Shown here one piece after another: positions 16,227 through 62,646 of a DNA stretch of 64,000 nt. The number at the start of each line of letters is the position of its first letter. Position 1 is the first letter of the stretch. The translations under genes and the position numbers were made by a program. Below the pieces are notes generated by a model, which was given only the letters and a program-made list of their open reading frames with translations, did not search any database and was not told where the DNA came from. Where the stretch lies: assembly GCA_051362555.1 (NCBI GenBank), contig CM120644.1, positions 12,236,567-12,300,566 on the forward strand. The letters run 5' to 3'. The DNA is from Lingula anatina (Eukaryota > Animalia > Brachiopoda).

Positions 16227-16266
16227 TTCCAATGAAGCTGCTATTCAAACTTTTAATCTTCCAGTT

Positions 16267-16268
<2 letters not shown>

Positions 16269-16346
<78 letters not shown>
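16269..16346. repeat. (AT)n microsatellite inside the element (shorter version at 59879-59933)
   Basis: Visible AT run. Confidence 0.95.
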
Positions 16347-16349
<3 letters not shown>

Positions 16350-19125: not shown

Positions 19126-19313
19126 GTAAAAGTGCACGGCGACGGCGACGGCGACAGCGACGGCGACGACGGCGACGACAGACGCAGATGATGGCTATAT
19201 GTACAGACACATCTGTGTCTGTACATAAAAACCATTCACTCATATGTCTCACTAAAATGAGTTATTTATCATCATTATCACTATGAAAATATTCTTTCTG
19301 TCCCATTTTTCCT

Positions 19314-31221: not shown

Positions 31222-32177
31222 TCAATCCTCGGGGAGTAAAAGACCTGGGAAATTTAAATGGATAATGTACAGACATTGTTGAACATGCACGCGCGTCGCA
31301 TTTAAAGATAAAGATGTGTTTCCTCCTTTTAAAATTTTTGATTTTGATATTTAGTATAATATTAGTAGATGAGGTGATAACAAGATATAAACAGGGAAAG
31401 AGAGCGAGAGACGGATCAAGAGAAAAAGACCGAGAGAATTCAAGAGAGAGAGAGAGAGAGGGAATGGAAATGGAGTAAGGTACCATACCGGTTGGTGCTT
31501 CCCAGTTACAACCAACTGGGCCGTTTTCTGACGGCCCTTCAGCAGAATGGCATTTGCAGGAAAATGTTGCACTGTTTTCCCAGGTTATTATCTTGCCTTG
31601 ACGTCTATGGTCGATATACAAGCACACCTGTAAACATCAAGACACACACATTTGAAATGACTCATTTACACGCAACATGTCAAAATTCATTGCCTTGGTT
31701 AATTCAAGACATTTCTGACTTTCAGTTAAAACTGAAGATCATTTATTTATACATGCATTTATTTATTAATACAATTATTCATTCAATTGTTTGTTTGTTT
31801 GTTTATCTATTTATACAATACCAGAGAGAGAGAGAGAGAGCATCTACCTGAGCCATATCCTGACACCTGCCAATTCGATCCACTCTGTGTCCATGGAAAC
31901 CACCCTCTGGCAACCACTCGCATCCAGGAGGGCCATTTTCTCCTGGACCTTCCGACGAAAAGCAACGACAGGCTGAGGTGTAGCCAATATGGTCAATTGT
32001 CAAGGTAGTCCCAGTGACATTAATGTAACGACAGATATCTTCAGTGCTGTCACACATTCGTCCCGGTCTGCCCCTGTGTCCCTTGTGACCACCGTGGTGA
32101 CCGCCACCTCTGCGTGCAGACGCCAGTTCCCCGCCAAAAATTAGGCAGAAACAGACTAGGAACAAAACGCGCGACAT
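31222..32177 (-). CDS. Small secreted Cys-rich protein A, ~163 aa; exons 32177-31848, 31627-31489, 31244-31222
   Basis: Signal-peptide-like MSRVLFLVCFCLIFGGELASA, Gly/His/Arg-rich segment, two modules C-x6-C-x20/21-CxC-x13-C-x-W. GT-AG introns are conserved with paralogue B. TATA-like TATATAAA on the - strand near 32260. Confidence 0.8.
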
Positions 32178-32744
32178 GTCGATCGGCTGTTGACTGTTTC
32201 CGTGAATAGAATCGGCGTGAAGGATTTGGTTGAAAAAATGTAGCCTTCGTGGATGATTTTATATACTCGAAGCGTATTTCCTGCTAGGGAGGTCGTCACG
32301 TTTTTACATAAAGTCTATTTAGAATAATGTAATGTGCAATTAGGGATATAAATTAATAGTTAATTTCAGTGTTAGGATAATGGATTAAAAGGAAATTACT
32401 TTTTGTTCGTAATAAAGAGTGGCCTTGGTTGGATAATACATTAATACAGAAAGTTTTCACCTCAACCCTTGGTCTTGCATATATGTTTAATTTTCTTAGA
32501 AATAATGGCAACAAAAAACCTGACTTCAGGTCTCTTAAATATGGCTACCTCAACAGAATTCAGAACAAAGCAGGCAAAAATAAATGACAGACACGCAGAA
32601 TTTTAGAAAAAATTTGCTATACTGTAGTTCCCTATCATCTGTGATATTTCTAGGGCTTTTTTTTGCGTTTTAATCTCGGATGTAGCGGGGATAAAAACGT
32701 TGTTTACTGCACTATAAATAACAGGGTGGTCACATGTGCAGGCT

Positions 32745-34485: not shown

Positions 34486-37180
34486 TACAATTATACATTG
34501 GGTTGTTTCTTTGTTTATCTATTTATACAATACCAATGCGACTTTAAGCATTAGTATACTAGTAAGTTGCATTGGTGGATATAGGGGTTGGTGGTGGCCG
34601 GGGGGGGGGGTACTGCCCTCCTCCCTTCGATTTCCGAAAAAAGTTACACCAATGGTTCCCTTTTGAAATTAGAATTTTGACTAGCTGAATCATAATAGTT
34701 CTAAACCGTTTCAAATGGCACCGTTCGCCCTCTAAAATACCCAAAAAATTGGGGGCCTTTAAGCAGGCCCCAAACCCTGCACTAAGGGGGGAGGGGGTCG
34801 GCTTCGTATCCGCAGACCCCTCCTTCAAATAATCCTTGATTGTGTGTTGCCATTGATTACATTAAAATTTAACATTAAAAACCAGTATGAAATGTGGGAA
34901 CAAACCATCGGTGGTCTTTTCTCTGGACACATCGACTCTATACCACAGGTGCTGGAGAGAGAAAGAGAGAGGGAGAGAGAGAGAGAGAGAGCATCTACCT
35001 GATCCATATCGCGACACCTCCCAACTTGATCCGCGTGTCCATGGGCACCACCCTCTGGCTCCCAGTCGCATCCAGGTGGGCTATCTTCTCCGGGACCTTC
35101 CGACGAAAAGCAGCGGCACTTTTCGGTGAAGGTAATATGGTCAATTGTTATGACAAGCCCAGTGACATTAAAGTAACGACAGATATCTGAAATGCTGTCA
35201 CACATGCGTCCCGGTCTGTCATCTATGCGTGCAGACCCCAGTTCCCCGCCAAAAATGAGGCAAATTAAACAGACTAGGAGTATAACGCGCGACATGTCGA
35301 TCGGTTGTTGACTGTTTCCGTGAATGGAGTCAGTGTGAAGAATTTTTCTGAAAAATGTAGCTTTCTTCTCTGCTTTTATTTAATTTCAGCGAATTTCATG
35401 CCAGGGCAGTTACGTTTTTTACATGATGTCTATTTAGAATTGTGAAATGGGCAATAAGGGATATAAATTTATAGTTAATGTCAGTGTTAGGATAATTGCT
35501 TAAAAGGAAATTACTTTTTGTTTGTATTGTTGTAAACTTACAATTTCACAAATTTCAGGTAATTATTTAAGAGTAATATGATAGGGAGTTATTGAGTGTA
35601 AGATAAGATTCCTCTAAAAGAGTCAACAATTGCAGAAATTGTTTTCATGGTTGGAAAAGATGGAACATGTCAAAGTCATATAATTCGATCTGATTGGTTT
35701 ATTTCTCAATAGACTTGCAAGTTTCTGACACTTGTAAAACACATACAAACTTAGGTTGTATATGGTCCAAGCAGGAGTAATTCAAATAATATTCTTAATA
35801 TTTTAAATCGAAAACAAGTCTCTTGGAGATTGCCTAATAAGGAAATGTTGAATGGAGGAATGCAACATGAGAATGGAAAATTCCTTGTAATCAAGCAAAG
35901 ACAATGGAAAGAAAACAAGTAAATGCATGCTCAGTACAGAAAAATAGAGTATAAATACTTGTAAATTTGTAGAGAGTTGGTGAATAAATGTTTGAACGCA
36001 CTAGATTGTCGTTATTGTCACTATAAAATGAATAAAGAGTGACCTTGGTTGGATAATACAAGCATACAAAAAGGTCTCGCCTCAACCCTTGGTCTTGCAC
36101 ATGTTTAGTTTTCTTAGAAATAATAACACCAAAAAACTTGATTTCAAGTGTCTTTAATATATCTTCCTCAATAGAGTTTAGAACAAAGCAATATGCTGGG
36201 TCGTTGGCAAATGTAAATGACAGGCACGCGGAATTTTTGAATAATTTTTTTCGGTGTTAGGATAATTGCATAAAGGAAATAACTTTTTGTTCGTAATGTT
36301 TTAAAGTTAATGGCTTACACTTTCATTAATTTCAGGTAATTATGTAAGAGGAAACAAATGAGTAAAATGATAGGGTGTTATTGAGTGTAAGTTAAAATTT
36401 CTCCAAGAGTCAACAAGTGTAGAAATTGTTTTCGTTTTAGGAAAAAATGGAGCACTCAGAATTTTTGAAAAAAAAAAATTTTTATAGTTCCCTATCATCT
36501 GTAAAAATATGAAGTACATGGGTAAGCGTAAACATATATTAAAATACACGTTTCTTATCCTCTTATATTTCCCAATTCAGACCCTACAACGATAAAAGTC
36601 GTTTTGTATTGGCGGATTCACTGACTGACCATGCTTTTCGAACTAAATTATATATATTTAATCGGAAATTATAGAAAACATCGAATGCACACGCAGGGAC
36701 GGGTCAAGCAAATATTCTTGAGCAGGAAACATTGTAATTTTTTTCCAGGTGATTTCTTTGCGTGTTAATCTCGGTTTGGATACCTTTAAACTGCATTTGC
36801 CAGGATTGAAACGTTGAGTACTGCACTATGAATTACAAGAGGGTGGTAGTAGGATCTTTCCAGCCCCTTGAATGAAATTTGACATTAAATGATTTCTTAA
36901 TGCCGGAGTACTGTGATTTATTCCATACAGAAGAAAAAAGTACTTACTCGAAATGTTAGGATTACTATTAGGCTGTAGCAGTCGAATTTCGAGAAAATTC
37001 CATATTATGCTTGACTTGTTCTCCAAATTGGTATTTTAAGCATAGGAATGATAGCTCGATTATCTTTTATCTCTAACATGTCTTGTGTATCAAGGTTTTC
37101 ACGTCGGTGAGAGTTGAAAAATTGAAAATATTAGATGAAAGGTATACTGTGAACGTTTGAAATAATGAATTAAAAGAATT
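32745..37180. repeat. Mosaic local duplications around the secreted-protein pair (a ~330-bp block at ~32745-33105, ~33510-33840, ~36858-37180; promoter-side blocks duplicated at ~32330-32640 and ~35440-36500)
   Basis: Shared strings such as AATGCCGGA.TACTGTG, GAGAAAATTCCATATTATGC and TCTCTAACATGTCTTGTGT.TCAAGGTTTTCAC. Confidence 0.8.
33956..35295 (-). CDS. Small secreted Cys-rich protein B, ~147 aa, tandem paralogue of A; exons 35295-34999, 34329-34192, 33964-33956
   Basis: MSRVILLVCLICLIFGGELGSA signal-like N-terminus, the same 10 mature Cys and the same splice sites. Exon 2 is 1 nt shorter than in A, so the last exon reads VF*. Confidence 0.75.
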
Positions 37181-37478: not shown

Positions 37479-39224
37479 CATTGTCCATACAACTCAGCTA
37501 CTGCGGTCGCACTGCTTAAATACGTACCTATATTAACAAAACCCGCAATCTTAAAGCTATTCTGCATTTAACAGAAGTTAGCGTACCTGGCATTATAAAA
37601 AATCGACATGGAAAAACAAGTGGAACAAAAGGTTCCGCTATAGTTTTACCCGCAAGTTTGTTCACTTGATTTAAAAGGCGCGGACTACCTGGGGGACATT
37701 TTTTAAAGTTTCACCCGGCAGCTTGTTTACTAGGTTTTATATAGATGCACACTAAGAGAGAGACTACCCGTTTCCAGACTATGTAGCGGTAAAAAGAGGT
37801 GCCTTGAGCATTGTAAGTTTTCAATTCTTTTCCTTCTTTTACCACGAGAGACGATAGCGTCATACTACATTATCATGATAAACCTCAGATGGAAGTAACA
37901 TTGGATAAAAAGCGCGGAATATACTGTAATTGCCTGGCGCTTAATTCATCAAATCATTATTTTGCTTATGAACTTTTGCCATTGAATCATCTGCACTAGA
38001 ATCTCTGATGTTTTTAGTTTGAACGAAGTTAAACGAATATATATTTACTAAGATTGTGTTCATATGGAAAGACAGTCGCCATATTTACACCCCTTTTACA
38101 CTATGCAGGAGTTTGGGTGTAGACCCGGAGCACGTTTAATATATCATCGAGCGGAAGGGCACCGATCTCTCGTGGATGAAGATAGGGCACTCACTACTAC
38201 TGAATCGTGTCTTTAACAGCGAAAGCAGATTGTAATATGTATAAATATTGTTCAAAACTGCCCTCCTTTCTAACAAAAGTTATACGCAATGGAGTCCATT
38301 GCCATTATTCCTGTCTTTCCCATAACTACACGTAGATTTATCAACCCTTGCCAGCAGTGCAGAGCTGGAGGACGTGGGTGCGACCCGTGCGGAGACATAC
38401 CGCCATTCATTATGAAAAAAAATCGAAGCGGTAGAGTTATTCTCACTACTAGACTCGAGGCAAAGCAAGAATGCACCACTACCCCTGTATGTATGTGTCC
38501 TCAAAGCCCCCGCATTTGACTGTGAACTTAGGTAAAAATCAATAACACAACAAAAGAAAAAAGCTCAACAAAAGCTCAGCGTTAGTTTAACCTGATACCT
38601 TGTTTACCAGATTTGTATGACGAGCAGCAGGGAAGACGGGAAATGTGGGACCATGTAACTGTCTAGAAGATGTCTTGAGCATTGTAAGGTAAAAATGCAT
38701 TATGCCATTTTTATTGTTTCATGGGAGGGCGTTAGATTACTATAATGTTCAGGTCCAAGTAAAATGATGAACAATTTTGAAGTTCACTCTTTTTAAGGGA
38801 CAAAGATATTGATCTAATTTCTGATCGTTACTGAATTTTGTTATTATCATGGAGCCCTCATCAACAATATCAGTCTGGTTGGGGAGTTGGAGATTTGTTT
38901 GATTTTTTCTCGGCGCATGAATTATTCTGCATTTGTAGCATTAACATCGCAGAATTTTCCTCAATATTCTATGTATTATATGGGCGTGTAGAAGTTTGGA
39001 TTAAGAAAGATTTGGGCGTTGTTAGGTAAATAAAATAAACATATTCTTTTATATTTTACATATATTTAGTATTTGCGTATAAGTGCACATGGAATCAATG
39101 CAAGGCAACAGTTTTAGAGGAGACAGTCACCTGTGTCGTTATTTGTTGAACCAAGTTTTGCTTATGAACACTTGCCATCGATGTTTACCCTAGTACAGTG
39201 TACCTCTGCTGTCATTGTAGTTAC

Positions 39225-39376
39225 CTGGGCTCCGTATCTCGAAAGGTTCGCTATGTTGCGCATGTGCGCAAGTGTCTCGATTCCATAACCGATTCTATTT
39301 CGAGATACGTTGCCATGGAATCGAGACACTTGCGCACGTGTGCAACATAGCGAACCTTTCGAGATACGGAGCCCAG
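39225..39376. mobile_element. Near-perfect 152-bp palindromic MITE (Harbinger-like ends)
   Basis: CTGGGCTCCGTATCTCGAAAGGTTCGCTATGTTGC ... GCAACATAGCGAACCTTTCGAGATACGGAGCCCAG; ~60-bp arms. Confidence 0.85.
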
Positions 39377-40407
39377 ATCTCCGTGTATTCAGCATTCATC
39401 GATTGTAATGTAGATATCAAATATAACGATCAATATGCTGTGATCGTGTCCTAAAAAATGAACACCCACCATTGTTCCCCCCCATGCTGCGCTGTGCGGA
39501 GGTCAAAGGGCACATCATCAAGGTTTAGAGTCGACTCTTTATCGAAATAGGAAGAAACGGTGTCTTAAAGTGTATATATAGTGTCTTAATGTGTATATAT
39601 AGTGATATGTTATTTTTCTTCAGAAATGCCATTTCTATCATTAAAACTATCATAAAGTAATCAATTCACGCTGCTTAATGTTCAGATCCGATAAATAGAT
39701 TTGCAGATATAATAGTTGTATTGTCAGCAGGCTATCCTCCCCTATCAATGTCATGCAAACCTTTAGAAGGTGTTTTATTGTAAAAGAATCAACGCTATTT
39801 GGTTAAAATGAAATATTTAATAAAAATGTTTACAAAACTAAAGAATGGAGGGCTCGTGTGTTATTAGCGCAGGTGTATATAGAAATAATATATTTCTTCC
39901 TTTTTGTCTATCGGTACATTTGAAAACACCCGAGCAACAATTCTTTTCTCTAAAAATGTTTTTTTTTGCAGACAAATGTTCATTTTTGGCCATTTGTTTC
40001 AAGTCGAGAATGTCAGAGACTTCGAAAAAAGCAGATTTTTTTGTAAATTTTTGAACTGGCTGGAATGGATCATAAATTATACTTATTACAATGAGAAATG
40101 TTTTTTAAAATTATCCTTTGAAAGTAAAATCTAAACCAACTTTGGGAGAGCATAGCTCTTAAAGTGTTTTTTTTTTTTGTTCACATATGTCATGTATACA
40201 GAGATTTTAGAGGACATGAAAAAGGGGAAAAAACAACAACGATTCAATGTAATCTTTCTGAGGGAACGCAATAATTACATGTATTACATTTGAATGAAAA
40301 CTTTGCAAGAGAACGCAATACTTTTTTACGTTTGAAAGCAATCTTTGTCAAGGAACGCAATAATTTTTACTTTCGGATAACAGTAAACATTATCATGTTT
40401 TGCAGAT

Positions 40408-41060
40408 GCTCCAAGGCTACCAATGCAAGTCCACGTGCATCATGCAGATACAGGACCTTAGTTGGGTTATTGGCTTTTGATAAGGTACATTTCTTCTCTA
40501 CTGTTCTTCTATCTCGCTATGTTAAATTCATAATGCCAACGGCATGCACATGCGCTTTAGTAGTTTTGCAACCAACGTTAGGGAACTGAAATTTTGTTTT
40601 TAAAGCTTAAGACCTTTGGAATGAAATTGTCGACATAACTACTTGGTAATTTTCAGCAGGACTGGAGAGTCTCACTCACCTGATTATTTGGTAAATGTCT
40701 TACCTAATTTTCATACATAATGAATTTTTAGCAAGAGAAATGGCATTTTGCATGTGCTTTAAATAAAGTGTGATCTCTCTCTCTTTTTGATAATTTCTGT
40801 ATTTCTCTATTTTCTAATTAATTTAGGAATGCGAGTCTTGGATGCAGATCCAACTCCTGCTGGTTCTTTAATCAAAACTTAAGTGAATTTAATTTTTTTT
40901 TTCACAAAAATGCTCTGAGCAGTTGAAACAGCTATTCGCTGTATACTAGTACATCAGAGAAATGGAATGAGGAAATACATGTACAGGGGTGGCAAAATTA
41001 AGCAATAAAATTTTCTGCAAAATTATGTGGTTTAATTTCAGGTATCCCAATATAATCAAT
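40408..41060 (+). other. Probable non-coding 5' exons of the ROCO gene (~40408-40483, ~40657-40690, 40827-40882, then acceptor at 41042)
   Basis: Pyrimidine-rich AG acceptors paired with GT donors (tttgcag|..ag|gtacat; tttcag|..g|gtaaat; tttag|..aa|gtgaat; tttcag|). The last small exon has a stop in frame with ATG 41061 and contains upstream ATGs. Confidence 0.4.
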
Positions 41061-44000
41061 ATGTCAGCAAACAAAGATTCACCAGAATGGAAAAAGCTTG
41101 AATTGTTGCAAAAGCTGGACAAAAATCCAATATACGCTGGGTCAGATGCAGAAGAAGCAAAGGGGTGGACAAGGCTCAATCTTCAAAGAATTGGAAGAAG
41201 AATTCCACAGAGTATACGTCGATGTATTAAACTTAGAATACTTGATATATCTGGTAATGGAAACCTAGGCCATGCAACATGGGATGCAATACACGCACTA
41301 ACAGGTCTAGAGGAGTTGAATGCATCAGCATGTGGAGTCAATGTGATCTCAATGAAATTCGATCAGCTGGCAAACCTAATTAAATTAGATCTTTCAAAAA
41401 ACAACTTGAAAGAATTCCCATCGTCAATATTTGAACTGAAGTCATTGGAAAAGCTTAACCTGGGCTATAACAACATCGCCACAGTTCCTCCACAGGCAAA
41501 GCAACTGAAACATCTTAAAAGCCTTGACCTGTCCCGAAACGAGCTGGAAGACTTCCCAGCACCAATATATGAGCTGGAGACACTAGAAGAGGTTAATGTG
41601 AGCTTTAACAACATTGCGGCAATTCTGCCACAGGTGGAAAAAATGAAGAATCTGAAGGTGCTAAAGCTGTTCAAGAACAACCTGAAAGAATTCCCAATGC
41701 CGGTGTGTGCACTTAAGACACTAGAAGAAGTTGACCTGAGCTTTTCCAACATCAGAACAACCCCATCAAAGGTAAAGCAATTAAAAAATCTGAAGATTTT
41801 GAAACTCTCTAACAACAATCTGGATGAATTCCCAATACCAGCATGCGAACTGGAGGCACTAGAAGAGGTTGACCTGGACAACAACAACATCACCACAATT
41901 CCGCCACAGGTTAAACAACTGAAGAATCTTAAGGTACTAAAGCTGTTAAAGAACAGACTGCGAGAATTCCCAAAACCAGTATGTGAGCTGGATACACTAG
42001 AAGAGGTCGACATGAGCCATAACAACATAACAACAGTGCAACCAGAGGTAAAACAGTTGAAAAAGCTGAAGAAGCTAAGGCTGAAAGACAACGACCTGAA
42101 AGAATTTCCAATAGCAGTATGTGAATTGGAGGCACTAGAAGAGGTCGGAATGAGCGATAATAAGATCACCACAGTTCCAACAGAGGTGATTCAACTGAAG
42201 AATTTGAAGTCTCTAAATCTGCAGAAGAACAAATTGGACCAATTTCCAATTTCAGTATGTCAGCTTATGACACTAGAAGAGGTTATCTTATCCAATAACA
42301 AGATCCCCACTGTTCCATGGTTGGTAAAACAACTGAAGAACCTGAAGATACTAAGGCTACAGTTCAACAAACTGAATGAATTTCCGGAACCGATATGTGG
42401 GATGGATTCTCTGGAGGAGGTCAACCTGGGCAACAACAGGATCTCCATTGTTCCATGGTGGGTAAAACAACTGAGGAACCTGAAGATACTAAGGCTACAT
42501 TGCAACAAACTGAATGAATTTCCGGGACCGATATGTGGGATGGAGTCTCTGGAGGAGGTTAACTTGTCCAATAACCAGATCCTGACAATTCCACTAGAAG
42601 CAAAACAACTTAAAAATCTGAAGGAACTAAGGTTGCGCAACAACAATTTGGTAAATATTCCTTTATCGTTGTGTGAGCTGAAGACACTAGAAGAGATTTA
42701 CCTGGACAATAACAAGATCAGTGCAGTCCCTCCACAAATAGAACAACTGAAAAAACTCAGGATACTAGGGCTGTGTAAGAACAATATAGATGAATTTCCA
42801 AAGCCTGTATGTGAACTGGAAACACTAGAAGTAGTTGACCTGGAAGGTAACAGCATCACCACAATTCCGCCAGAGGTTCGACAACTGAAGAATCTTAAGG
42901 TACTTAAGCTGAAAAACAACAGGCTACGAGAATTCCCAAAACCAGTATGTGAGCTGGATACACTAGAAGAGATTGACATGAGCCATAACAACATAACAAC
43001 ATTGCGACCAGAGGTAAAACAGTTGAAAAAGCTGAAGAAACTAAGACTGAACCACAACCATCTGAACGAATTTCCTGTTACACTATGTGAGCTGGAACCA
43101 CTAGAAGAGGTTTACTTGGACCATAACAACATAACAACAGTGCGACCTGAGGTAAAACAGCTGAAAAAGCTGAAGAAACTAAGACTGAGCCACAACAACC
43201 TGAAAGAATTTCCAGCTACACTATATAAACTGGAACCACTAGAAGAGGTTGACTTGGACCATAACAACATCACTATGGTTTCTTCAGAGGTTAAAAATCT
43301 ACAGAACCTTAAGATATTACGGATGTGCAACAACGGGCTGGATAAATTCCCTGTACCATTATGTAAGCTGGAGACACTAGAAGAGGCTTACTTGGACCAT
43401 AACAACATCACCACAGTCCCATCACAGGTAAAGCAACTGAAGAATTTGAGAAAAATATGGATGCGCAGCAACAATCTGGTCGAATTCCCAGTAACATTAT
43501 GTGAGCTGGAGAAAATTAAAGGAGTTTTCTTGGACAATAACAAGATCACCGCTCTCCCAGCTCTGACAACACTCAGCAGAATACGAAGTTTAAGTCTTAA
43601 GTCTAACAGTATTACTAAGATTTCAGAGGAAATAGGCAAAATGATGCAGCACTTAGAATCTCTTAACTTAGAAAACAACAAGTTGGAAAAATTACCTGAA
43701 GGGATGCGATTCCTATCATCTCTAAATGAGTTTTGCCTGGGGGGTAACACACTGATTCAGCCACCGGAAGAAGTAGTCAAAGAAGGCAGAGAGGCAGTGT
43801 TCCGATATCTTGAAGATCTGGCACAAACCAGAGCAGAGAAAGCATCAAGACTTCAGGTTCAGGTGCTAGGAGAAACTTGTGTAGGAAAAACAAGTCTGGT
43901 GGGAACACTCACAACGGGAGAGCCCTACTTGACCCTTGAAGCAGACAGAACGCATGTCCTGCAGCAAAAATCATGGGTGCCACAGGAGGATATCTTCTTG

Positions 44001-47000
44001 AATATCAATGACTTCGGTGGTCATTCAGTCTACAAAGTTGCACACAACTTTTTCTTGACCAAAAATGCATTATCTTTGGTTGTTTTTGATATCTGTTTGA
44101 ACATACCTGAGAAGTACCATCGTGATATAGGAACTTGGATTGAAAACATTTATTACAGATCACCAGAATCAAGAATTTTACTAGTAGGAACTCACGCAGA
44201 CTTCCTTAGTGTTAAAGAAATACAGACAAAGAAGGAAGATATCAAGGGAGCGTGGAAAGCACAATTAGAAAAGAGACAATCCAGATTGAAAGCAGCCTGT
44301 GACACGTTGCGTAAAAAAATGAGAAAACAGAAAGAGCTTACAGAGGCGTATCGTACTAAATTAGATCACATAAGAAAATCAATGAAAAACCCACCACAGG
44401 TTTGTGAAGACATATTTGTCACAAGTTCCAAATCACAATATGGAATTGAGAACCTTAAAAATGAATTGATCCGAATAGCAAAGCAAAAGGCCATCATATT
44501 ACCAGGATCATGGTTGAAAATAGTAGAGAACATCGAAAAAGCTAAACACAGTGGGACAGAATCTGTTTTGTCCATGGATTCCATTGGAGAAATAAACGAA
44601 GAACACGAACCTCCCCCTAAAGTTGCCAGAATTGCAGAGGCATCAACCAGCAAAGAACGAGACAAATCAGAGAGTCAGAGGATGGAAGATGTAATTTCGT
44701 TTCTGCATGATACTGGCGTGGTTTTGTGGTTCAAAGCCAATCCTTTGCTGCGACAGGTCATTTTTCACAAACAGGATGTGCTCATAAACCTCTTGAAGGC
44801 AGTCCTCCGCCATGATCTTGCATCCATCCTCGTATATGATACTAAACCCTTCAGTGAGAGATTTAGCGGACCGGGGTTTGAATCTGCAAAACAGGATGCG
44901 CTGAAACGAGGTATTTTGAGCACAACATTGCTTGAATGTTTGTGGGAGAAGTATGACCTAGGGACACCAGGATTTTTAGCAATGCAGAAATTACTGAAGG
45001 ACTTCGAGGTGTGCTATGTGGTTAAAGGCGAGGAAGAAGATATGATTCATTTTCCGTGGATCTTGGAAGAAGGTCGCCCAAAAGATCTTTCCTCCAAATG
45101 GCAGACTACACCCCTTCCCCGAGATGCATTGCAAATTTCCACCGAGGTCCATTTTGCCGGCCCCTGCCCAATAGGGCTGTATGAAACGGCTGCTGTACAT
45201 CTCCATGAACACTTGAAAAACTTCAAATCAACACGTATAGACTGGAAGGATGGTTTCTATGCCCAGCTTGGTGTTTATCTCCGAATGACACTTGAAAGGG
45301 AATGTGTAGGAAACCCAGCCAATGGAATACTAAGGCTTTCCATGCGGGGGGACAATCTTCACCAACTCAAAGAGTCTTACCTTAAGTTATTCAAGGACTT
45401 AACACAGTTGATAGAAAGAGAATGCCCTGGTGCAACTCGAGTTGAATATGTGGTGTGTCCACATTGTTTACATAATGAGGAAACATCTCCATCACTTTTT
45501 GAAATACCAGAGCGATTTCTTAATGTTTCACTGGAAGATAGGGCATGTTATCACCCTTGCCCAGAGGAAGATCCAAGTTTCATGGCCTCGGCGGATTTCT
45601 ATTATCCTGTGACGGAGGGTACGTTAATATTACAGTCAGTTATAAGCGGTAGTAATGTTATCCAAAATGTATGAAATTGACACATTATCAGTTGGCAGAA
45701 AACTTTGGAACTGAACATTCTACATTGTTTATTTTTAAAATAGTTTATTTAATATAACATGCTATTATTTTGGTAGGTGTCATGACCGATCTCCACAGTA
45801 CAACCCTGAGGATACATGGCGTACAAATGTATAAAGACATCAGTGGTCCATCCCGGCCCCTCCAGGAGATAATGAATCGACTTGTGAAAGAAAAGATACT
45901 CACAGAACAAGACCGGAGATCCATCCTAGATCCAGATGGAACAATCAATCTTTTCAGCATCCTTAAAGGAAAGAGGGACTCTGCGTTCTACATCTTCTGT
46001 GGAGCCTTACATGACAGTGGGAAACATGAAACTGCGAGTCTTCTGATGTAGGTTGACGTCTTGTTCCTACCAGCTATACTGAGTTTTAATGTGTTTATCA
46101 AGTTAGATATTTCCTGGGTTATTTTTCCATTTTTTTTTTTATTTACAGGCAATTGGTTCACATTTAATTATACCGGATTGGTTACTGACGTATCTTGTAA
46201 ATATAATTCAATCCATTATATGCCACCAGAAGACTCCCCCAGAAATGTTTGCTTGAAAGCAGTAACCAATTTCCAATTATTTCATATTTCACTAAAACTG
46301 CTTTCTTTATGTCAAATTTCTTTTATTTTGAATACATATTATGAACTTTATTGTAGGTTATCGGATTTTGCAGTGGGCCTTGGGGAAGATGGTCTCAGAG
46401 AAGCGCTGACAACTTTGTTGCACGAGAGTGTACTAACACAGGAGGAGGTGAACTCTGTGCTTTATAAATCAAGGCAACAGCTTTCTCGTAAGGTGGGAGT
46501 TCTTCTTCAAAAATTGAGTGACAAAGTTCGCTTTTTACGGGGTGAGCCCTTTTCTAATTTTAAGAAAGTTGTATATGAGATTGAAAGGAAACAGCGACTG
46601 GAAAAGATGTACCCTTCAAACTCACCTGAGCGTAATAAGCTGGAATTGCTTCAAAAGCTCGACAGAGACCCAAAATATGCTGATCCAGATTCGGAAGAAA
46701 AAGAGATATGGAAAAGCCTAAATCTACAAAGAATTGGAACCAGAATACCACAGAGTATATCTCGCTGTGTCAACATTGAAAGACTTGATATATCCGGTAA
46801 TGGAACCCTAGACAAGGCAACATGGGAGGCCATACACACACCAAGAGTTCTAGAAGAGTTAAAAGCATCTGAGTGTGGAGTAAATGCAGCCTCTTTAAAA
46901 ATCGATCATCTGACAAGCCTAAAAAAATTAGAACTGTCCAAGAACCACTTGAATGAATTACCATTATCAATATTTACGCTTGAAAGACTGATAGAGCTTG

Positions 47001-50000
47001 ACCTTAGCCATAACAACATCACCACCATTCCACCAGAGGTGCAACGACTAAAGAATCTGAAGAAATTAAACATGTCCCACAACAGTTTGGAAGAAATCCA
47101 GACTCCAGTATGTGAGCTGGAGACATTAGAAGAGCTCAACCTGAGTCATAACAAAATTGCCACAGTTCCACCAGAGATAAAACAACTGAGGAGTTTGAAA
47201 GAAATTAACCTATCCAACAACAAGCTGAACGAATTCCCGATCACTTTATTTGAGCTGGAAACACTAAAATCTGTTTGGATGGATCATAACTACATAACCA
47301 AATTCCCGGTCTTGACAAAAACCAGCAAAATAGGCTTTCTTAGTCTAAATTCTAACAATATTATTGATGTTTCTGAGAAAATAGCTGATATGATGATGAA
47401 CCTCGTCACTCTTGACTTAGGAAACAACAAATTGAAGAGATTGCCCGTGCAAATGCATCTCCTGTCATCTCTACGTGAACTTCACCTGACAGGCAACAAA
47501 TTAATTCAGCCGCCACAAGATGTAGCAAACGAGGGCAAGGAGCCGGTGTTCCGGTATCTTGTAGATCTAGCAAAAAGTTCAGCACAGGAAGCATCGATGC
47601 TCCAGGTCCAAGTGCTAGGAGAAACTTGTGCAGGGAAGACAAGTCTGGTGGGAACACTCACAAGGGGAGAAAGCTGCTTGACCCCCGAAGAAAACAGAAC
47701 ACATGTCCTGCAGCAACAATCATGGATGCCACAACAGGATGTTATCTTGAATATCAATGACTTTGGTGGTCATCCAGTCTACAAAACTGCATACATTTTC
47801 TTTTTGACCAAAGAATCCTTGTCCTTGGTTGTATTCAATATCTGCTTAGACATAGTAAAGGAGTACCATAGTGTTATAGGAACATGGATTGACAAAATCT
47901 ATTACCGATCACCAGAATCAAGAATTTTACTAGTAGGAACTCATGCAGACCTCGTTACTGTTGAAAAGATACAGACAAAGAAGGAAGATATCATGAGAGC
48001 ATGGAAAGTACAACTGAAAAAGAGACAATCCAGCTTGAAAGCAGCCTATGACAACTTGGATGAAAAAGTGAGAAAGCAGAAAGTTCTTACAGATGTGTAT
48101 CGTACTAAGTTGGATCACATAAGAAAATCAATGAAAAATCCACCAAAGGTTTGTGAAGACATATTTGTCACAAGTTCGAAATCAATATATGGAATCGAAG
48201 ACCTAAAAAATGAATTAATCCGAATAGCAAAGCAAAAGGTCATCATATTACCAGGATCATGGTTGACAATTGTAGAGAACATTGAAAAAGCTAAACACAG
48301 TGGAACAGAATCTGTATTGCTCATGGATTCCATTGGAGAAATGAGCAAAGATCACGAACCTCCCCCTAAAGTCGCCAGAATTGAAGAGGCATCAACCAGC
48401 AAAGAACAAGACAAAGCAGAGTGTCAGAGGATAGAAGATGTCATTTCGTTTCTGCATGAAACTGGTATGGTTTTGTGGTTCAGAGTAAACCCTTTGCTGC
48501 GACAGTTCATCTTTCACAAGCCAGATGTGGTTATAAACATATTAAAGGCCGTCCTCCGTCGTGACCTTAAATCCGTCCTAGTATATGATACTCAACCCTT
48601 CTGTGCCAGGTTCAACAGACAGAAGTTTGAATCTGCAAAACAGGATGTGCTGAAACGAGGTATTTTGAGCACAACATTACTTGAATGTTTGTGGGAGAAG
48701 TATGACTTAGGGACACCAGGCTTTTGTGCAGTGCAGGAGTTACTGGAGCACTTTGAGGTGTGCCATGTTGTCAAAGGTGAGAAAGAAGACAAATTTCATT
48801 TCCCCTGGATCTTGGAAGAAGGTCGCCCAAAAGATCTTTCTTCCAAATGGCAGACGAGACCACTTCCCCGAGACGCACTTCAAATTTCCACTGAAGTTCA
48901 TTTTGCTGGTCCCTGCCCAACTGGACTGTATGAAATGGCTGCTGTCCATTTTCATGGATATTTGGGAAACTTCAAATCAACACGTAGAGATTGGAAAGAT
49001 GGTTTCTATGTCCAGCTTGGTGATTGCCTCAGAATGACACTTGAAAGGGAATGTGTGGGAAACGGAATACTAAAGCTTACTATGCAGGGGGATGATCTTA
49101 ACCAACTCAAAGAGTCTTGCCTTAAGGTATTCAAGGACTTGGCACGATTGATAGAAAGAGAAAGTCCTGGTGCCACTCGAGATGAGTACGTGGTGTGTCC
49201 GCACTGTGTTCATGAAGAAAAAACACCTCCACCTCTTTTTGAAATACCAGAGCAATTTCTCAATGTTCCATTGGAAAATCAGGCATGCTATCACCCTTGT
49301 CCAGAGGAAGAGCCAAGTTTTATGGCCTCAGCAGATTACTATTACCCAGTAACTGAGGGTAAGTTTATATCACTATTAGTTATGGAGTAGTATGTTAATT
49401 GTGCTGGAATTACACAAGATGGGTTAAGTTGTCAAGTTTGAGTGTGAAAGAAAACGGTCAAATTATATCTTTTATTACACATAGCACATTTGTTCACTTG
49501 ATATCAGTGGGACATGAGCTTGTATCTTGGTTACTGTTCCATATAGGTAACATGACCGATCTCCACCGTACGGCCCTAAGGATACATGGTGTGCAATTGT
49601 TGAAAAACATCAGCGGTCGATTTAGGCATCTCTGCGAGATATTGAGTCGCCTTGTGAGAGCTGGGATATTCACAGAGGAAGACCGGAGATCCATCCTAGA
49701 GCCAGATGGAACAATCAATCTTTTCAGCATTCTTAAAAGAAAGAGGGACTCGGCGTTCTACATCTTCTGTGGAGCTATACATGACAGTGGGAACCACGAA
49801 ACTGCCAGCCTCCTCAGGTATATATATATTTTTTCCAAGTTTTGTTAGTTTCGTATTAAACACTATCACCTAAATAGGTAACAGCGCCTTTTTAGTATTA
49901 ACGTTGCATTTGTTGGGTTGTTAAATAAATGTCATTGCGTCTGTCACATACCATTATCAGTTTGATTGTTTTAGTATCTTGAAAATATCCCACACTCTGT

Positions 50001-52324
50001 TGCTTTCTAGCAGACTTGGAAAATAACCTAGGTAAGAAAATTGACTGAAAGCAGCAACTGATTTCTAATTACAACACAATGCACTGAAATACATACATTT
50101 TGCAACCCAATCTAGATTACCAGATTTGGCAGTGGACCTTGGAGAAGATGGTCTTAAAGCAGTGCTGACAACTTTAATGTCTGAGGGTGTCCTAACACAG
50201 AAGGAGGTGAAGGCCGTGCTTCATGAATCACAGCGACAGGTGTCTCGCAGGATGGAAGTTCTTCTTCAAAAGTTAAGCGACAAAGTACCCTATTTATGTC
50301 ATGACCCCTTTTCAAAGTTCAAGAAAGCTGTGTATGAGATTGAAAGGGAAAGGCGTTTGGGTAAGGAACTATTTTCTCTAAATTAAAGTAACATAATTTA
50401 GAGACATTTAATTAACATTATGTTTGCCTTTGTTAACAGCACTATTTTTAAAAGGCTAAATTATTTATTTTTTATCAATTTATCCTCCATGTTGGCACCA
50501 TACAGTTAAGGGTCATGTAACATCACTAGAGAATGTACACCAACATAAATAAGGGTACGCCATGCAATTGTTTTCATTTAAAATTTGCACACTTATCATT
50601 TGATGCTAAAAGTCTGGAGAAGGGTTTTGAATGAATTACGGTATTATCATGGAGAATATTGGTGCTGTAAATGTTACCCGAATTGAGCTACGAAATACGG
50701 AATGAGATACGAATAAAGGGAACCGGAGAAGATCAGCATTGGTCAGAATTGTGCCGGAAGTGACGTGCAGTGGTGTTAGAAACGAAGCTGAGTGGTCATT
50801 TTAACATAGAGGTGAACGGCAGTGAAGACGGGTTGTCGGAGGAAAAAGAAGTTTTCTAAACAACATGGTAAGATAACACTTTTTCTTTACGCATTTTGGG
50901 CAGAGAAAACTTGTAGAAATAATAAATGCATGATATGAAAACGTGACACGGAACTTGAAGGTGCAAAATCGTGCTTAATTTGCGGTCAACTTGTTTAGAA
51001 ATAAATGCTGCGTCGACCGCCAGCGCGACAAAAAGGGTAAAGGGGAAATAATTCCCGGGAGTCTATAAATCGTTGTCATGTGGAAATTTGGCATTAATAT
51101 AATCCGATATGTCCATATCTAAGTATTTTTGGGTGTTTTATGGTATGGGCTGCAATTACAACGATGTTTTAGAGGTCTTGAAGGACCTTGTGAAAACCAG
51201 GAAGTAGTTCGTAACTAACAAGTGGAATGTACCGATCTCCGACTGCTGTGCACAGCTGTATCTTTTTTTTAATATATTGACGAATTTTTAGATCTTTATA
51301 TGTCCATCTGGCATGAAATTCCACACACATGATCACACTGATATACCTTTTACACTGGGGAAGGCGCTAATCAGTGACAAATGCCAAGACAAAGGTGACA
51401 TTCTGACAGCCTCTTATCTGAGTTAAAAATCACTGACAAAAGAGACTGGCAATCAATTTCCTCAGGCTGGCAATCATTAGCCTATAGAAATTGGTCATGT
51501 TACATGTTATCTACCTGTGAGAATCGTTTTACCAACTGAGTATTGCATAATAATGTCAATTATTAGTACTTTGAGCTAGTCTTAATTACCTGTCAGCTCA
51601 CCTGAATTCTCTTTTTGTCTTTTTGGGAAGATCTTGTCAGTGAAATGTTTTATTTGTCCTGTGACAAAAATTCGTCAATATATTGAAAAAAAGATACAGC
51701 TGTGCACAGCAGTCGGAGATCGGTACATTTCACTTGTTAGTTACGAACTACTTCCTTGTTTTCACAAGGTCCTTCAAGACCTCTAAAACTTCGTTCTAAT
51801 TGCAGCTCATACACCCCAAAGATACTTAGATATGGACATATCGGATTATATTAATGCCAAATTTCCACATGGCAACGATTTACAGCCTCCCGGGAATTAT
51901 TTTCCATTTACACTCTTTGTCGCAATGGCGGTCGATGCAGCATTCATTTTAAAACAAGTTGACCGCCAATTAAGCACGATTTTGCACCTTCAAGTTCCGT
52001 GTCACGTTTTCATATCATGCATTTATTATTTCTACAAGTTTTCTCTGCCCAAAATGCGTAAAGAAAAAGTGTTATCTTACCATGTTGTTTAGAAAACTTC
52101 TTTTTCCTCCGACAACCCGTCTTCACTGCCGTTCACCTCTATGTTAAAATGACCACTCAGCTTCGTTTCTAACACCACTGCACGTCACTTCCGGCACAAT
52201 TCTGACCAATGCTGATCTTCTCCGGTTCCCTTTATTGTTTCCCCTTTTCTGTATTTTAGGATCAATCGTGAGTTTGAACACAGAGGTGCTTTACAGCAGA
52301 GAGCAGAGACAAGAAACCACGTGA
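41061..52324 (+). CDS. Tandem double ROCO protein (MFHAS1/MASL1-like units), ~2803 aa: 38 LRR-ROC-COR-CARD-CARD-12 LRR-ROC-COR-CARD-CARD; exons 41061-45618, 45777-46047, 46357-49358, 49547-49817, 50116-50360, 52260-52324
   Basis: Each unit has 23-aa LRRs, a P-loop GETC(V/A)GKTS, G2 Thr (RTHV), G3 DFGG, G4 THAD and a COR region ending CPHC..CYHPC. CARD-like exons follow (LRIHG..IL.RLV...ILT.ED...L..IL..KRDSAFYIFC.A(L/I)). Intron phases 1,2,1,2,1 all match; the first CARD exon is 271 nt in both units; total 8412 nt. The last exon is the least certain. Confidence 0.85.
50712..52236. mobile_element. 1.5-kb foldback non-autonomous DNA transposon with ~575-bp inverted arms (50712-51289 and 51666-52236)
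   Basis: AATAAAGGGAACCGGAGAAGATCAGCATTGG ... CCAATGCTGATCTTCTCCGGTTCCCTTTATT. Arms pair throughout, almost perfectly in the outer ~270 bp; ~376-bp spacer; possible TA TSD; AGGG/CCCT ends reminiscent of Kolobok. Confidence 0.9.
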
Positions 52325-54618: not shown

Positions 54619-57600
54619 AAAAATCATCGTGGTTAGTATTAACTAGAAATACTACTTAAGCTAATGTAAGTATTACTTCAGCTAATTGTGCAATGGAATC
54701 ATACCGTGCAGCTCACTACAATCCAGTGACTCTCCTACTTCATTATCATAAGTTCCAAATTTCCAGTTTACATTTTCTGTTAGATAACTATTGCTAGATG
54801 TGTTGTACGAGTCGACACTAATAGCAGCAACCTTATATTTCTGGCTTTCATCTTGGATGCGAAACAGGTTCCATCTGACGTAGTAGGTGTTTCCATCACA
54901 AGACAGCATGTCAATCTGCATTGAGTAATCCCCTTGATTGGTTAATGCGTAGAGAGCATCGTTTCCAAGCCAAAACTGCTCACGTGGGTCACCAAACCCA
55001 ACTTTATATGCATTCCAATTTCTGTGGAAAGACATGGTGCTGTTGTATCGACTCATCACAACAATCCATCCGTCGTCGCAATAAACTTCTTTTTGACCAA
55101 AGCCATCTATATCAATGGACGCTAAACCTGAACCCTCTGGAAAGGCACGATAATTTCGTTCAAAAGGGCGTTTAAAGTTACATTTGAACTGAACATCGGT
55201 GGAGCGGGGATTCGCATATAAACCACTTCTACTCGTTTCTTATATGACTCAAATAAGGTCGACATACCAAGGTATAAATTGAATGAATCACTCAATCAGC
55301 CATAAAATAGCTTTAGACTGCTCCTTTCTTTAAATTCTTGGTCAGAAATCTAACCTACTTATGTGACCCACTTACTGTCCCATGTATATACAGCAAACAA
55401 AGCTAGCAGAAAAATCCATAATTTTACAGGTAATATTAAAAGTGCCTTTTGGTAATTCTCTTAGTTATACTATTCGAAACTACACACACTGGACAATAGA
55501 AGTGTCACCCCTACTGAACCAATACTTTGGGGGAGATAAATGACTGTGGAATGATAAGCTCCTGGTATCATTTTACTAACATCAAATTTCACAAAAAAAC
55601 CAACAATACAATTCCATGGTACAGCGGTTTTATACTCATTAGTCACATTATAAGTAGACCAGGCATTATAACTTTGATTACTCTGATTCAGGGGGTGACA
55701 CTTCTATTGCCCAGTGTGTGTATATGCTGGCATTTGGTTGGTTTTTGAGGCAAATAAATTGACTTCATATGCATCTTTAAACTCTCTATCCTTACTTTAC
55801 TTACAGCTTTTACACTCTACCATTTATGGTGTGTTCAAAAATAAAAAAAAAAAAACGAATTCAAATTTATCACGACCATACAGCCCCTGGTACCTACCAA
55901 GATCATTGCAATCCTTTTCCACCTGCAAAATAATGTATTTTTAAATACATTCAATTCAGGTTGAGACTTTATTTAGCAAAGGAAAATTCTGTAATTTTCA
56001 TCACTTTCCCTTTATCACCAAGCTACTTCGTATTAAAACCCATTGACTAAATTACGATCTTTAAAACCATTTTTTAGTTCACAAAGATGGAGACTGGTGA
56101 ATGTCGCTCGTTGCCATACAGTGTACAAACAGGAATTCACAATTCAAAACTTATTCCGATATACGTGTAGATCGCAATTTTCTCAACAGTATGATACATG
56201 TATACCCCGGCAAATAAGGCAAAATTCTTAAAATTCCCAGGATAAAAAAAAGTTATTTTACAATATAAAATTCTTACAAACATCTTGAAGAAAAGTCTGC
56301 GTTCTGTATATCTAGCAATTGAATAACTCGGTTTTATGCCTCGCAATAATACAAGTGCGTAAGGAATACTGCAACACATGTATCTACTCTAAAGATTTGA
56401 CATTTTCAAAAGAAAGGCATTGTTTTCCGTTAGGGATGGGTATCTGTCTTTGAAACTGCTGCACAGGTTTACCTACCTGTTATACGTAAAGTACGCACCG
56501 CCTTCATATTGTAATAGTGTGACACGATCGAGTGCCTTTCGGTAATTCAGCTCACAGTCCCCTATAAATATAATGGACGGAAGCTATAGCCGATGCCTAT
56601 TTGTATCCCATGTAGGTTTTCCGAATATCGAGATTTTGGTTTTGGTTTACGTGTACATTGATTTAAAGCTACTGACAATTTGATTCTGCAAGTCATGCGT
56701 GGCCCAAAGGAGATTCATGTATTTGTAGTACGCGGAGGAACAAACGCTATGAGGTAGGTGACATTGCTGATGCTAATTGTGTGTAAATTTGGTGACATTT
56801 GGTAGGGTCTTTTCGATTTAATGGACATTTTTTACCTCTTGGGAAATCACATTGGAACATCAACATAGAGAGGGGGGTACATGTTATATTGATAAATCGT
56901 TTTAAAATGGATATAGTAAACGGTATTTTGTATTTCCGCACCATAATTCAAGTACGATATGATATCTGTACATGTATAACAAACACTGTTAATAACAGTT
57001 ATACATATACGAGGTGACCATTTGTAAATAAAAGCACTTGGAACTGGAGGTGGAACAACCTTTTTAACGAATGGTGTGCCGGGTATTTATGCATGACCCG
57101 GTGACATATCAGACGAAGAGCCAGAGTAAATTGCAAGTGCATTTATCAAATAAATGAAGTATAAAGTCTGAAAAAATCGCCGGGTCATGTACATAATATA
57201 CCTTGTCTCCTGCATTGTTTTGCATTAATTTAGTTAAATTAAATTAGTTTAAGACTTAAAATCAATAAAATCACAAATCTACAAATATTACAAACATTTT
57301 TTAGACTCCGAAATTTTACGGCAATACGAAAATTAACGTGCAGTTTTTGATTTTTTTATTCCAGTTTCACTTTTTTACTTTTTACGCTGGTTTGTACAGT
57401 GAAGCCTGGGAACTGAAAATTAATGTTGTATGCGTTTGATATATATGATCAAGCTAATGAACAGCAGCAGCTGATGTAACAATATTAAATGTATTCCCAT
57501 TATACAACAGTTAACATTGATTTCACAATGTTCAATGGGTTCCCATAATACAACAGCAACGGTTGTCACAATAGTGAATATATTCCCATTATATGACAGT

Positions 57601-57950: not shown

Positions 57951-59035
57951 GTTTCGGAGGCCTGCTGCTGATTACCATTTGCTTCTTAATTAATTTATTG
58001 TAAAACAGGTGCCCTCCGGTGACGTCATCACGCAGAGCTGTGTCCTTGCTTTACCAATGTAACCCGTGCTTTCAGGATCTAATAATATTTGCATTATACG
58101 CGATGAGTATTTTAAAAGTTGGATTTCTCCTTTGGCCGATGCAGATTTGCTATTAACATGTTATCTTCTCGATTTCAGTCTCTGTCACGGAGACAATGAG
58201 TTTGGTGGCGTCAGTGCACGGCACTGCTAAGTTTTGACCTTCAGTAGAAGTTTTGATCACAATCGATATATTTGTCAGGCGGTTGAATGATTGACAAAGA
58301 CACATTTTGGTTCTCAATCAGCCTTACTTTCTTGAGATGCATAAACTCTGGTATACTTATGTAGTGTTTCATTGTCTCAGCGCGTCTAGTTTGTGTATGA
58401 AAGTGTCTTTTGAATGTGTGGAGTGTGCCTTGAGTCTCTCTTTGAATAGCGGTGTTATAACCCTATTTATACTGTATAGAGAGTCTTTCTATTCCAAATA
58501 GAGACTATGGGTTCTACATACTAGTAAATCTAATAATACAACCACAACATTGAAATATAAACCGCTTTGATATTCTCTTCTGAACATTAAACATTGGTTC
58601 TCGTTAGAAAAACTATGTGTCTGGCTAAGTTATAAATTACAAACTCGAAACATATGTAATAAATGAAGATTTAAAGAAAATAAATGTATATACTGTATAA
58701 ACTGACCAAGAGACAGCTGGTTTAAAATACCTGCTGAAGGTAACAGTGGTGGGCAATCCTGAATGACACGATAATTTAATAAAGACTACTTTTAGTAATA
58801 CCGAAAGGAGACACGTTAATAAGCAATCTTTGACAAGAACTCGTTAAAGCTAAGTACATGTTGTTTTGCAGTATTTACGATCTCTAAAATTGTTTAGTTC
58901 ACGAAGATGAAAACTACATGGTGAAAATCACTTGTTGCCGTACAAACAGGAATTCAGAATACAAAACTAATTTCATTATAGACTGCAATTTTGCCAAAAG
59001 GTTGATATACCCTAGCGATTAAGCCAAAAATAATA

Positions 59036-59876
59036 AACAAGGCAGCAAAGCTGTCAAATGTACAGACAAAAAACAGAAAATAAAGATGCAAAAAAGGTCA
59101 TTTTGTCAATTTTGATGCAATAATAAATAATGCTTATAATAGCACTGTCAGTCAACACTGAATTTTAATCTTGTACAACGGGTAACATGGTCAATAACAG
59201 GAGCAGACCCAGAGATATTTTCTGACAGTATTCCAAAGTATCTATGTTGATCCATCCTCCATTTTGATGGTCTTCCAACAGAAAAAAATAGATACCAGTC
59301 AATATTAACTTAATAACCTGACTGTCTTCCGGAAGACCCAGAAGATGGTCTCAATCCACCCCTTCAATAAGATTACAGTTTCAGGACCATGAGAGTTCAA
59401 ATTCACATTATGAAAGTCTCAATATTTGAAAAATGATGACAGTGCATAAAATAATATTACATAATGTTTAAAGACATAAAAAACAATACAACTGCTTATG
59501 TAGAAATACAGAAAATGTGCAGAGCCCCAGGCAGATGAGAGTTAAAAGTCACAAATGCAAGTGTTTGAGAAAAAATTATAAAGGAAAACAACAAAACTAG
59601 AAAAGCACTTTGAGAGTGCAGACCTCTGCCAAGGCAGCAATTGTTGATTATTATTGATAATTGATTGATTATTGATCCAGACCACCACCAAAAATTAATC
59701 ATTGTCCTCTTTGGCCCACTTCCGACAGTTCCTGAAAATTTCTGCAAAATTGGTCCATAACTTTTTGTGTTATGTGGATGACAGACAAACAGGGGTGAAA
59801 ATATAACCCCCTTGGCAGAGCTTGAGGTAAATATAATTCCAATGAAGATGCTATTCAAACTTTTAATCTTCCAGTT

Positions 59877-59936
<60 letters not shown>

Positions 59937-62563: not shown

Positions 62564-62594
<31 letters not shown>

Positions 62595-62646
62595 AGACGC
62601 AGATGATGGCTATATGTACAGACACATCTGTGTCTGTACATAAAAA
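59036..62646 (+). mobile_element. ~3.6-kb Helentron/HINE-like element, copy 2
   Basis: Same termini and near-identical sequence to 15435-19230; 4 rather than 5 copies of the ~161-bp unit (61974, 62135, 62296, 62457). Confidence 0.85.

What the first reader, a model, noticed from the sequence alone, without database searches (positions are those of the whole stretch)
46580..46660. Fusion scar: the join sits exactly where a splice donor is missing
Seen: in unit 2 the second CARD exon ends CGTTTGG|GTAAGG (donor at 50361). The homologous position in unit 1 reads CGACTGG-AAAAG-ATG, so there is no GT and the unit-2 ATG (46607) follows at once. Inference: after tandem duplication, the last intron/exon of gene 1, the spacer and the 5' UTR of gene 2 were lost, either by deletion or by precise intron loss from a read-through transcript, fixing the fusion.
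Basis: partly seen in the sequence, partly recalled or inferred. Interest (0 to 1): 0.7.

Follow-up and report, generated by a model that had tools for sequence, protein, structure and literature searches.

The report
Old fusion scar in doubled GTPase
In a brachiopod (Lingula) gene, two copies of a signalling-GTPase unit run into one reading frame across a 20-base join where a splice site is missing; the join likely arose long ago by an ordinary DNA rearrangement and would give a rare protein with two GTPase engines, but no RNA read crossing it was found.

Summary
The donor GT at 50361 has its homologous place at 46602, which reads AA, and the frame runs from CARD2 into a second LRR-ROC-COR unit (predicted 2803-aa protein, [LRR-ROC-COR-CARD-CARD]x2). 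The join is real: a contig from another run bridges it without gaps, and two Lingula anatina RefSeq models (LOC106170294, LOC106170298) carry it. It is derived: single-unit relatives have CARD only after ROC.

The join is a 20-nt linker (46602-46621), not an exact abutment. Its first 17 nt align 12/15 with the start of a paralog's intron (p 0.002-0.012), so it is likely an exonised intron stub with a dead donor. ATG 46607 is one codon off unit 1's start and is Thr in LOC106170298, so it is not shown to be a relic start. A precise intron-loss join would give a stop. Internal duplication versus deletion between tandem paralogs cannot be separated.

Against: no RNA read bridged the join in two runs, at a depth where 0.6-2.7 were expected. 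A predicted amphioxus protein also has two ROC-COR modules. Ordinary mechanism, uncommon architecture. Interest 0.35.

The parts
46602..46621 (+). 20-nt linker at the join; 46602-46603 (AA) is the place of the lost GT donor; 46602-46618 likely exonised intron stub
46607..46609 (+).
41042..45618 (+). Unit 1 exon: acceptor AG ends 41041, ATG 41061, N-cap, about 32 LRR motif matches, ROC (G1 43869, G3 44010, G4 44187), COR-A, COR-B; phase-1 donor at 45619
45777..46047 (+). CARD-like exon 1 of unit 1
   Evidence: Pfam CARD E 7.7e-5, below cut-off; spliced RNA reads
46357..49358 (+). Composite exon: CARD-like 2 of unit 1 (to 46601), linker, unit 2 N-cap, about 9 LRR motif matches, ROC (G1 47618, G3 47759, G4 47936), COR
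49547..49817 (+). CARD-like exon 1 of unit 2
50116..50360 (+). CARD-like exon 2 of unit 2, intact phase-1 donor GT at 50361
52260..52323 (+). Predicted last coding exon, in frame, homologous to the C-terminal tail of P0121
   Evidence: no RNA laid here
38694..40404 (+). RNA joint (3 reads, run X19) linking upstream exons, likely 5' UTR of this gene
   Evidence: link to the coding exon not shown

Best explanation
The window holds two diverged LRR-ROC-COR-CARD-CARD units in one open frame, joined by a 20-nt linker where unit 1's last splice donor is missing; the join likely arose from one old genomic rearrangement and would be read through into a single 2803-aa ROCO protein with two GTPase modules. 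Inferred steps: (1) an internal tandem duplication, or a deletion between two head-to-tail paralogs, broke about 17 nt into the intron after CARD2 and rejoined at codon 7 of an LRR unit; (2) the stranded phase-1 donor, which would have spliced the second LRR-ROC-COR out in frame to the next CARD exon or the last exon, was lost (Gly GGT to Asp or Glu; Asp in P0121 would need a single G-to-A change if its codon is GAT), turning the stub into a linker; (3) the fused gene was then duplicated again and recombined with its paralogs. Shown: the open frame, both breakpoints, the missing GT, the same join in two RefSeq models and one other run, intact G motifs and purifying selection in both units.
For: Breakpoints mapped at 46601 and 46622. 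Linker 46602-46618 aligns 12/15, with one 2-nt gap, to the intron start of a paralog's terminal CARD2 exon: p 0.004, 0.002-0.012 over four other gap costs, 0.010 after dropping the five generic donor bases, and 1 of 194 generic GTRAG 18-mers scores as high. X9 contig 14 spans 46149-47291 with 51 differences and 0 gaps. P0001 and P0121 carry the join in frame. Five fused units form one clade, 100/99, apart from 12 single-unit Lingula ROCOs. Of 187 ROC+COR proteins among 267 fetched, 15 have a CARD-like domain; it follows the first ROC in 15 of 15 and precedes it only in P0001, a 5'-truncated two-unit model. Unit 1 v unit 2 dN/dS 0.17-0.46 in 7 of 7 segments, dS 0.29-0.53; both intron pairs still align at 62-66%. 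Unit 2 ROC-COR folds at pLDDT 89 and matches LRRK1, LRRK2 and C. tepidum Roco. RNA: intron bins empty and unit-1-type splices seen.
Against: No RNA read covers the 60-nt bin centred on the join in X18 or X19 (class depths 0.32, 0.97, 0, 0.42); 0.6-2.7 such reads were expected at depths 1-4.5. In 4 of 4 RNA runs nothing at 92% identity lay on 47706-50237. The stub match is 1 of 3 comparisons, chosen after seeing the loose end; it fails against the window's own unit 2 intron (p 0.49) and needs a gap. The bases at 46602-46608 also resemble unit 1's start region by eye, so the left few bases could come from either side. X10 showed no bridging contig among the pieces listed (8 listed for two runs, 11 not shown). 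P0121's codon was not seen. RefSeq models are predictions.
Confidence: 0.55

Rival explanations
1. Same genomic rearrangement and read-through, but the break fell at the exon end itself; the linker is filler DNA or comes from the 5' end of unit 2's ancestor, so no donor had to be killed afterwards.
For: Linker matches neither the window's unit 2 intron (p 0.49) nor unit 1's 5' end (p 0.24); N-termini of single-unit relatives vary freely before the N-cap helix, so unit 2's ancestral 5' end is unknown.
Against: Match to the paralog intron start survives controls (p 0.002-0.012).
Confidence: 0.24
2. The DNA join is real but the two units are mostly expressed separately: unit 2 from a promoter near the CARD exons using ATG 46607, unit 1 ending through another donor.
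For: No bridging RNA read; in X18 depth drops from about 3 to about 1 at the join and rises to 7 beyond 46750. GT sites at 46493 and 46542 score like the gene's real donors under a rough recalled consensus.
Against: The Met is Thr in P0121, whose next Met lies 33 residues further, beyond the conserved N-cap helix; no stop, no last exon and no usable GT near the join (46609 scores -4.2); frame kept across joins about 20% diverged; no loose end or joint at 46602 among those listed.
Confidence: 0.13
3. Precise intron loss from a read-through transcript.
For: The break on the left falls within a few bases of the exon end.
Against: A test join of 46601 to the unit-1-type acceptor exon stops after 3 codons (assumes unit 2's ancestor used the same acceptor); 20 nt lie between; the two neighbouring introns are kept.
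Confidence: 0.04
4. CARD-LRR-ROC-COR in one exon is the ancestral state.
For: P0001 alone looks like this.
Against: P0001 begins inside a unit-1 COR domain; all other CARD-bearing relatives have CARD after ROC; fused units nest among single-unit genes.
Confidence: 0.03
5. Assembly artefact joining two paralogs.
For: The window protein is a mosaic of P0121-like, P0001-like and a third type, so a haplotype switch elsewhere in the gene is not excluded.
Against: At the join itself: gap-free contig from X9 and two RefSeq models with diverged versions.
Confidence: 0.01

Closest known systems
Lingula anatina RefSeq models LOC106170298 (XP_013405562.1, P0121, 2682 aa) and LOC106170294 (XP_013405557.1, P0001, 1559 aa)
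   Same: Same two-unit layout and same join; P0121 is 99.6% identical over 1328 aa of unit 1, P0001 94-98% over the join and unit 2 LRR. Both on one 519,751-bp contig.
   Different: Named 'uncharacterized'. Window's unit 2 ROC-COR-CARD is a third type (53-86% to both). P0121's join has Asp and Thr where the window has Glu and Met.
Lingula MFHAS1-like single-unit ROCOs (P0002-P0005, P0122-P0129)
   Same: LRR-ROC-COR followed by one or two CARD-like domains, same N-cap helix near the start.
   Different: One unit only; 31-50% identical over ROC-COR.
Branchiostoma belcheri LOC109474394 (XP_019630255.1, P0145, 3062 aa, predicted)
   Same: Two ROC and two COR hits in one chain, each ROC with G1 and G3 motifs.
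   Different: LRR-ROC-COR-ROC-COR then a GT4 domain; second module very divergent; no whole-unit repeat, no Pfam CARD.
C. tepidum Roco, LRRK1, LRRK2
   Same: ROC-COR fold; described as dimers through COR with a nucleotide-dependent monomer-dimer cycle (PMC6337361, passages and section 6 read).
   Different: One ROC-COR per chain; LRRKs add a kinase.
Partial (internal) and chimeric gene duplicates, as reviewed in PMC3449122 (passages read)
   Same: Duplications that ignore gene borders, fuse neighbours and recruit intronic sequence as coding.
   Different: Here both halves are near-complete copies of one gene type.

Membership tests
ROCO proteins | ROC domain followed by COR | tested here: met
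   Pfam Roc above cut-off in both units; COR-A and COR-B hits below cut-off but significant; unit 2 model matches LRRK and Roco structures
ROCO proteins | Intact G1-G4 motifs in each ROC | tested here: met
   G5-like stretch read by eye (the regex missed it)
ROCO proteins | GTP binding, hydrolysis and COR-mediated dimerisation | not testable with these tools
   No biochemistry; the complex prediction never ran
MFHAS1/MASL1-like ROCOs | LRR-ROC-COR without kinase | tested here: met
   nearest relatives carry this source name
MFHAS1/MASL1-like ROCOs | Orthology to vertebrate MFHAS1 | not tested
   No vertebrate row in the trees; 24-25% identity
CARD domains | Pfam CARD score at the gathering cut-off and six-helix death fold | tested here: inconclusive
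   4 of 4 exons hit CARD at 17.2-23.4 bits, all under 23.9; whole P0001 scores 55.6; model pLDDT 51 and no fold match at E 0.001; PDB sequence hits to CARD8 only at E 0.9
Precise (RNA-mediated) intron loss | Exact exon-exon abutment that keeps the frame | tested here: not met
   20-nt linker; test join stops after 3 codons
Internal or chimeric gene duplicate | Two homologous halves including introns, with one set of 5' and 3' flanks | tested here: met
Internal or chimeric gene duplicate | Single-unit state in relatives | tested here: met
Internal or chimeric gene duplicate | Outgroup gene that tells one-step internal duplication from fusion of two neighbours | not testable with these tools
   No genome held; no unfused member of the fused clade found

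The most novel reading that the evidence does not exclude
A naturally pre-dimerised ROCO: two diverged, intact ROC-COR modules in one chain pair with each other through COR, replacing the usual monomer-dimer cycle by an intramolecular, asymmetric switch with two different LRR sensors (about 32 and 9 repeats) and four CARDs, and the gene keeps swapping modules with its paralogs.
Probability: 0.2. Interest if true: 0.7.

Novelty: new variant of a known kind. Interest (0 to 1): 0.35.

Why it matters
The scar itself is a clear but ordinary record of how a gene doubles: a break just inside an intron, loss of the donor, a short stub turned into a linker. The product matters more. How dimerisation drives the ROCO GTPase cycle (LRRK2 included) is still debated (PMC6337361), and a natural chain with two intact ROC-COR modules would let one module be mutated alone. 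That use depends on the fused transcript, which is not yet shown. Two ROC hits per chain occurred in 2 of 189 ROC-bearing proteins examined.

Tried and rejected
No whole genome is held, so paralogs could be seen only as proteins and contig ends. No RNA holder was listed by the run index; 5 of 9 raw RNA runs and 2 of 10 DNA runs were laid. Search for short proteins with the join region: 0 of 716 candidates. Search for longer proteins: 1 of 3467. AlphaFold model of the join region was low-confidence (pLDDT 51) and its fold search gave nothing at E 0.001; not used. Alignment A1 was misaligned and dropped. A COR1-COR2 complex prediction never ran, so there is no verdict. A recent conversion tract between the window's units was not found (longest identical run 37, p 0.18), though segment trees conflict (segments chosen). 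Linker origin from unit 1's 5' end (p 0.24) or from the window's unit 2 intron (p 0.49) not supported. Donor weights are a rough recalled consensus. Earlier scan notes: none. Paper searches found no description of a two-unit ROCO or of this Lingula gene (listings only; passages read for PMC11378527, PMC4104024, PMC6337361, PMC8195603; PMC3449122 from one search). The library lacks most subscription papers; a 2018 survey of Lingula immune genes (recalled, not seen) may cover the family. No supplements were read.

Full report
What is there. The window holds two long frames, 40971-45674 and 46052-49390, each with LRR, Roc, COR-A and COR-B hits, and four CARD-like exons. Six exons with GT-AG ends join into one 2803-aa frame, LRR-ROC-COR-CARD-CARD twice. 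The two units align at 79% over 2.9 kb, introns included (62-66%). The organism is Lingula anatina or a very close form: unit 1 is 99.6% identical over 1328 aa to RefSeq P0121. The predicted last exon at 52260 matches P0121's tail.

The observation. Unit 2's CARD2 exon ends at 50360 before a GT. The same place in unit 1 is 46602 and reads AA, with ATG at 46607. Identity to the CARD2b exon holds to 46601 (34/42) and identity to unit 1's N-terminus starts at 46622 (30/39); the 20 nt between match neither in register (6/20, 5/20). Paralog contigs in runs X9 and X10 show a GT at exactly the homologous place.

Is it real? Yes, in DNA. One X9 contig covers 46149-47291 with 51 differences and no gap (1 of 2 DNA runs laid, X10 showed no bridge among the listed pieces). 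P0001 (LOC106170294) has the same join peptide, and P0121 (LOC106170298) a diverged one; both lie on one contig. CARD2 and the N-cap differ by about 20% between P0121 and the window, so the join predates that split.

Is it derived? Yes. Among 267 fetched proteins (best 120 of 772, best 150 of 1144, and P0121), 187 have ROC and COR and 15 of these a CARD-like domain. It follows the first ROC in all 15, and precedes it only in P0001, which starts inside a unit-1 COR. The five fused units form one clade (100/99) apart from 12 single-unit Lingula genes (midpoint root; with four amphioxus rows the same clade appears).

How the join formed. The first 17 nt of the linker align 12 of 15, with one 2-nt gap, to the intron that follows a paralog's terminal CARD2 exon (p 0.004). 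This survives other gap costs (0.002-0.012), removal of the five generic donor bases (0.010), and comparison with 194 generic donors, of which 1 scored as high. It is one of three comparisons, was noticed after the fact, and fails against the window's own unit 2 intron (p 0.49). I read it as a likely intron stub. A stranded donor there would be phase 1, like the next CARD1 acceptor and the last exon, and would have spliced the second LRR-ROC-COR out; its loss makes read-through the default (inference). The residue is Glu in the window and P0001 and Asp in P0121; Asp would be one transition from the donor codon if it is GAT, which I could not see. The ATG is not evidence of gene 2's start: it is one codon off unit 1's ATG and is Thr in P0121. 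A precise exon-exon join gives a stop after three codons. Internal duplication and deletion between neighbours leave the same structure and are not separated here.

Selection and mosaic. Both units keep G1-G4, dN/dS is 0.17-0.46 in all seven segments, and unit 2's ROC-COR folds confidently and matches LRRK and Roco structures. The window's protein follows P0121 to residue 1500, P0001 over 1700-2000 (94-98%), and a third type after that, nearer its own unit 1 over 2200-2450. Segment trees conflict (p-AU 0.017 and 0.032; segments chosen post hoc). This points to recombination among paralogous units; an assembly haplotype switch away from the join is not excluded.

Expression. In X18 and X19 the intron bins are empty and unit-1-type splices appear: 5 reads at 45620-45781, and 3 reads whose loose end before 46358 is a CARD1 exon end (typing of reads is my reading of the letters). 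A further 9 reads at 45619-45781 look like the RefSeq unit 2 type. No read covers the bin 46572-46631, so none bridges the join with 31 nt on each side; 0.6-2.7 were expected for depths 1-4.5, P(0) 0.07-0.55, fewer if paralog reads are removed. Nothing at 92% lay on 47706-50237 in four runs. The fused mRNA is therefore predicted, not shown.

Comparison with what is known. LRR-ROC-COR is an old, widespread layout, and CARD-bearing ROCOs are reported from Trichoplax (PMC11378527, PMC4104024, passages). ROCO proteins dimerise through COR and cycle with nucleotide (PMC6337361, passages and section 6). Duplications that cross gene borders and recruit intron sequence are common (PMC3449122, passages). 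Seven searches found no paper on a two-unit ROCO, but RefSeq already models it, and a predicted amphioxus protein has two ROC-COR modules (P0145). An immune-sensor role is inferred from the domains and from those reviews; it was not tested.

Verdict. The two-engine ROCO it would produce is an uncommon variant worth a transcript check. Interest 0.35.

Noticed in passing
window 50712-52236: About 1.5-kb element with 578-bp terminal inverted repeats at 95% inside the last intron; its right arm ends about 24 nt before the last-exon acceptor.
   Followed up: partly
window 15428-19231 and 59028-62646: Direct repeat at 91-95%, 43.6 kb apart, flanking the ROCO gene and holding a 161-bp satellite; could mediate copy-number change of the gene.
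   Followed up: no
window 47700-50360: Unit 2 ROC-COR-CARD is a third lineage, unlike both RefSeq unit 2 copies and partly nearer unit 1; no RNA read at 92% lay on it.
   Followed up: partly
P0145 (Branchiostoma belcheri LOC109474394): Predicted protein with two ROC-COR modules and a C-terminal GT4 domain.
   Followed up: partly
window 39225-39376: 152-bp palindromic element covered by many RNA reads that run off into unrelated sequence: a multicopy repeat.
   Followed up: no
window 31803-32258 and 34825-35379, minus strand: Paralogous short frames with a signal-peptide-like start and several Cys; no Pfam hit for the one scanned.
   Followed up: no
window 54682-55239, minus strand: Fibrinogen C-terminal domain exon.
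   Followed up: no
window 8809-10223 and 63002-64000: Tandem arrays of 146 bp (about 10 copies) and about 361 bp.
   Followed up: no
P0002-P0005, P0122-P0129, P0268-P0270: Lingula has an expanded family of at least 15 further MFHAS1-like LRR-ROC-COR models, many ending in CARD.
   Followed up: partly
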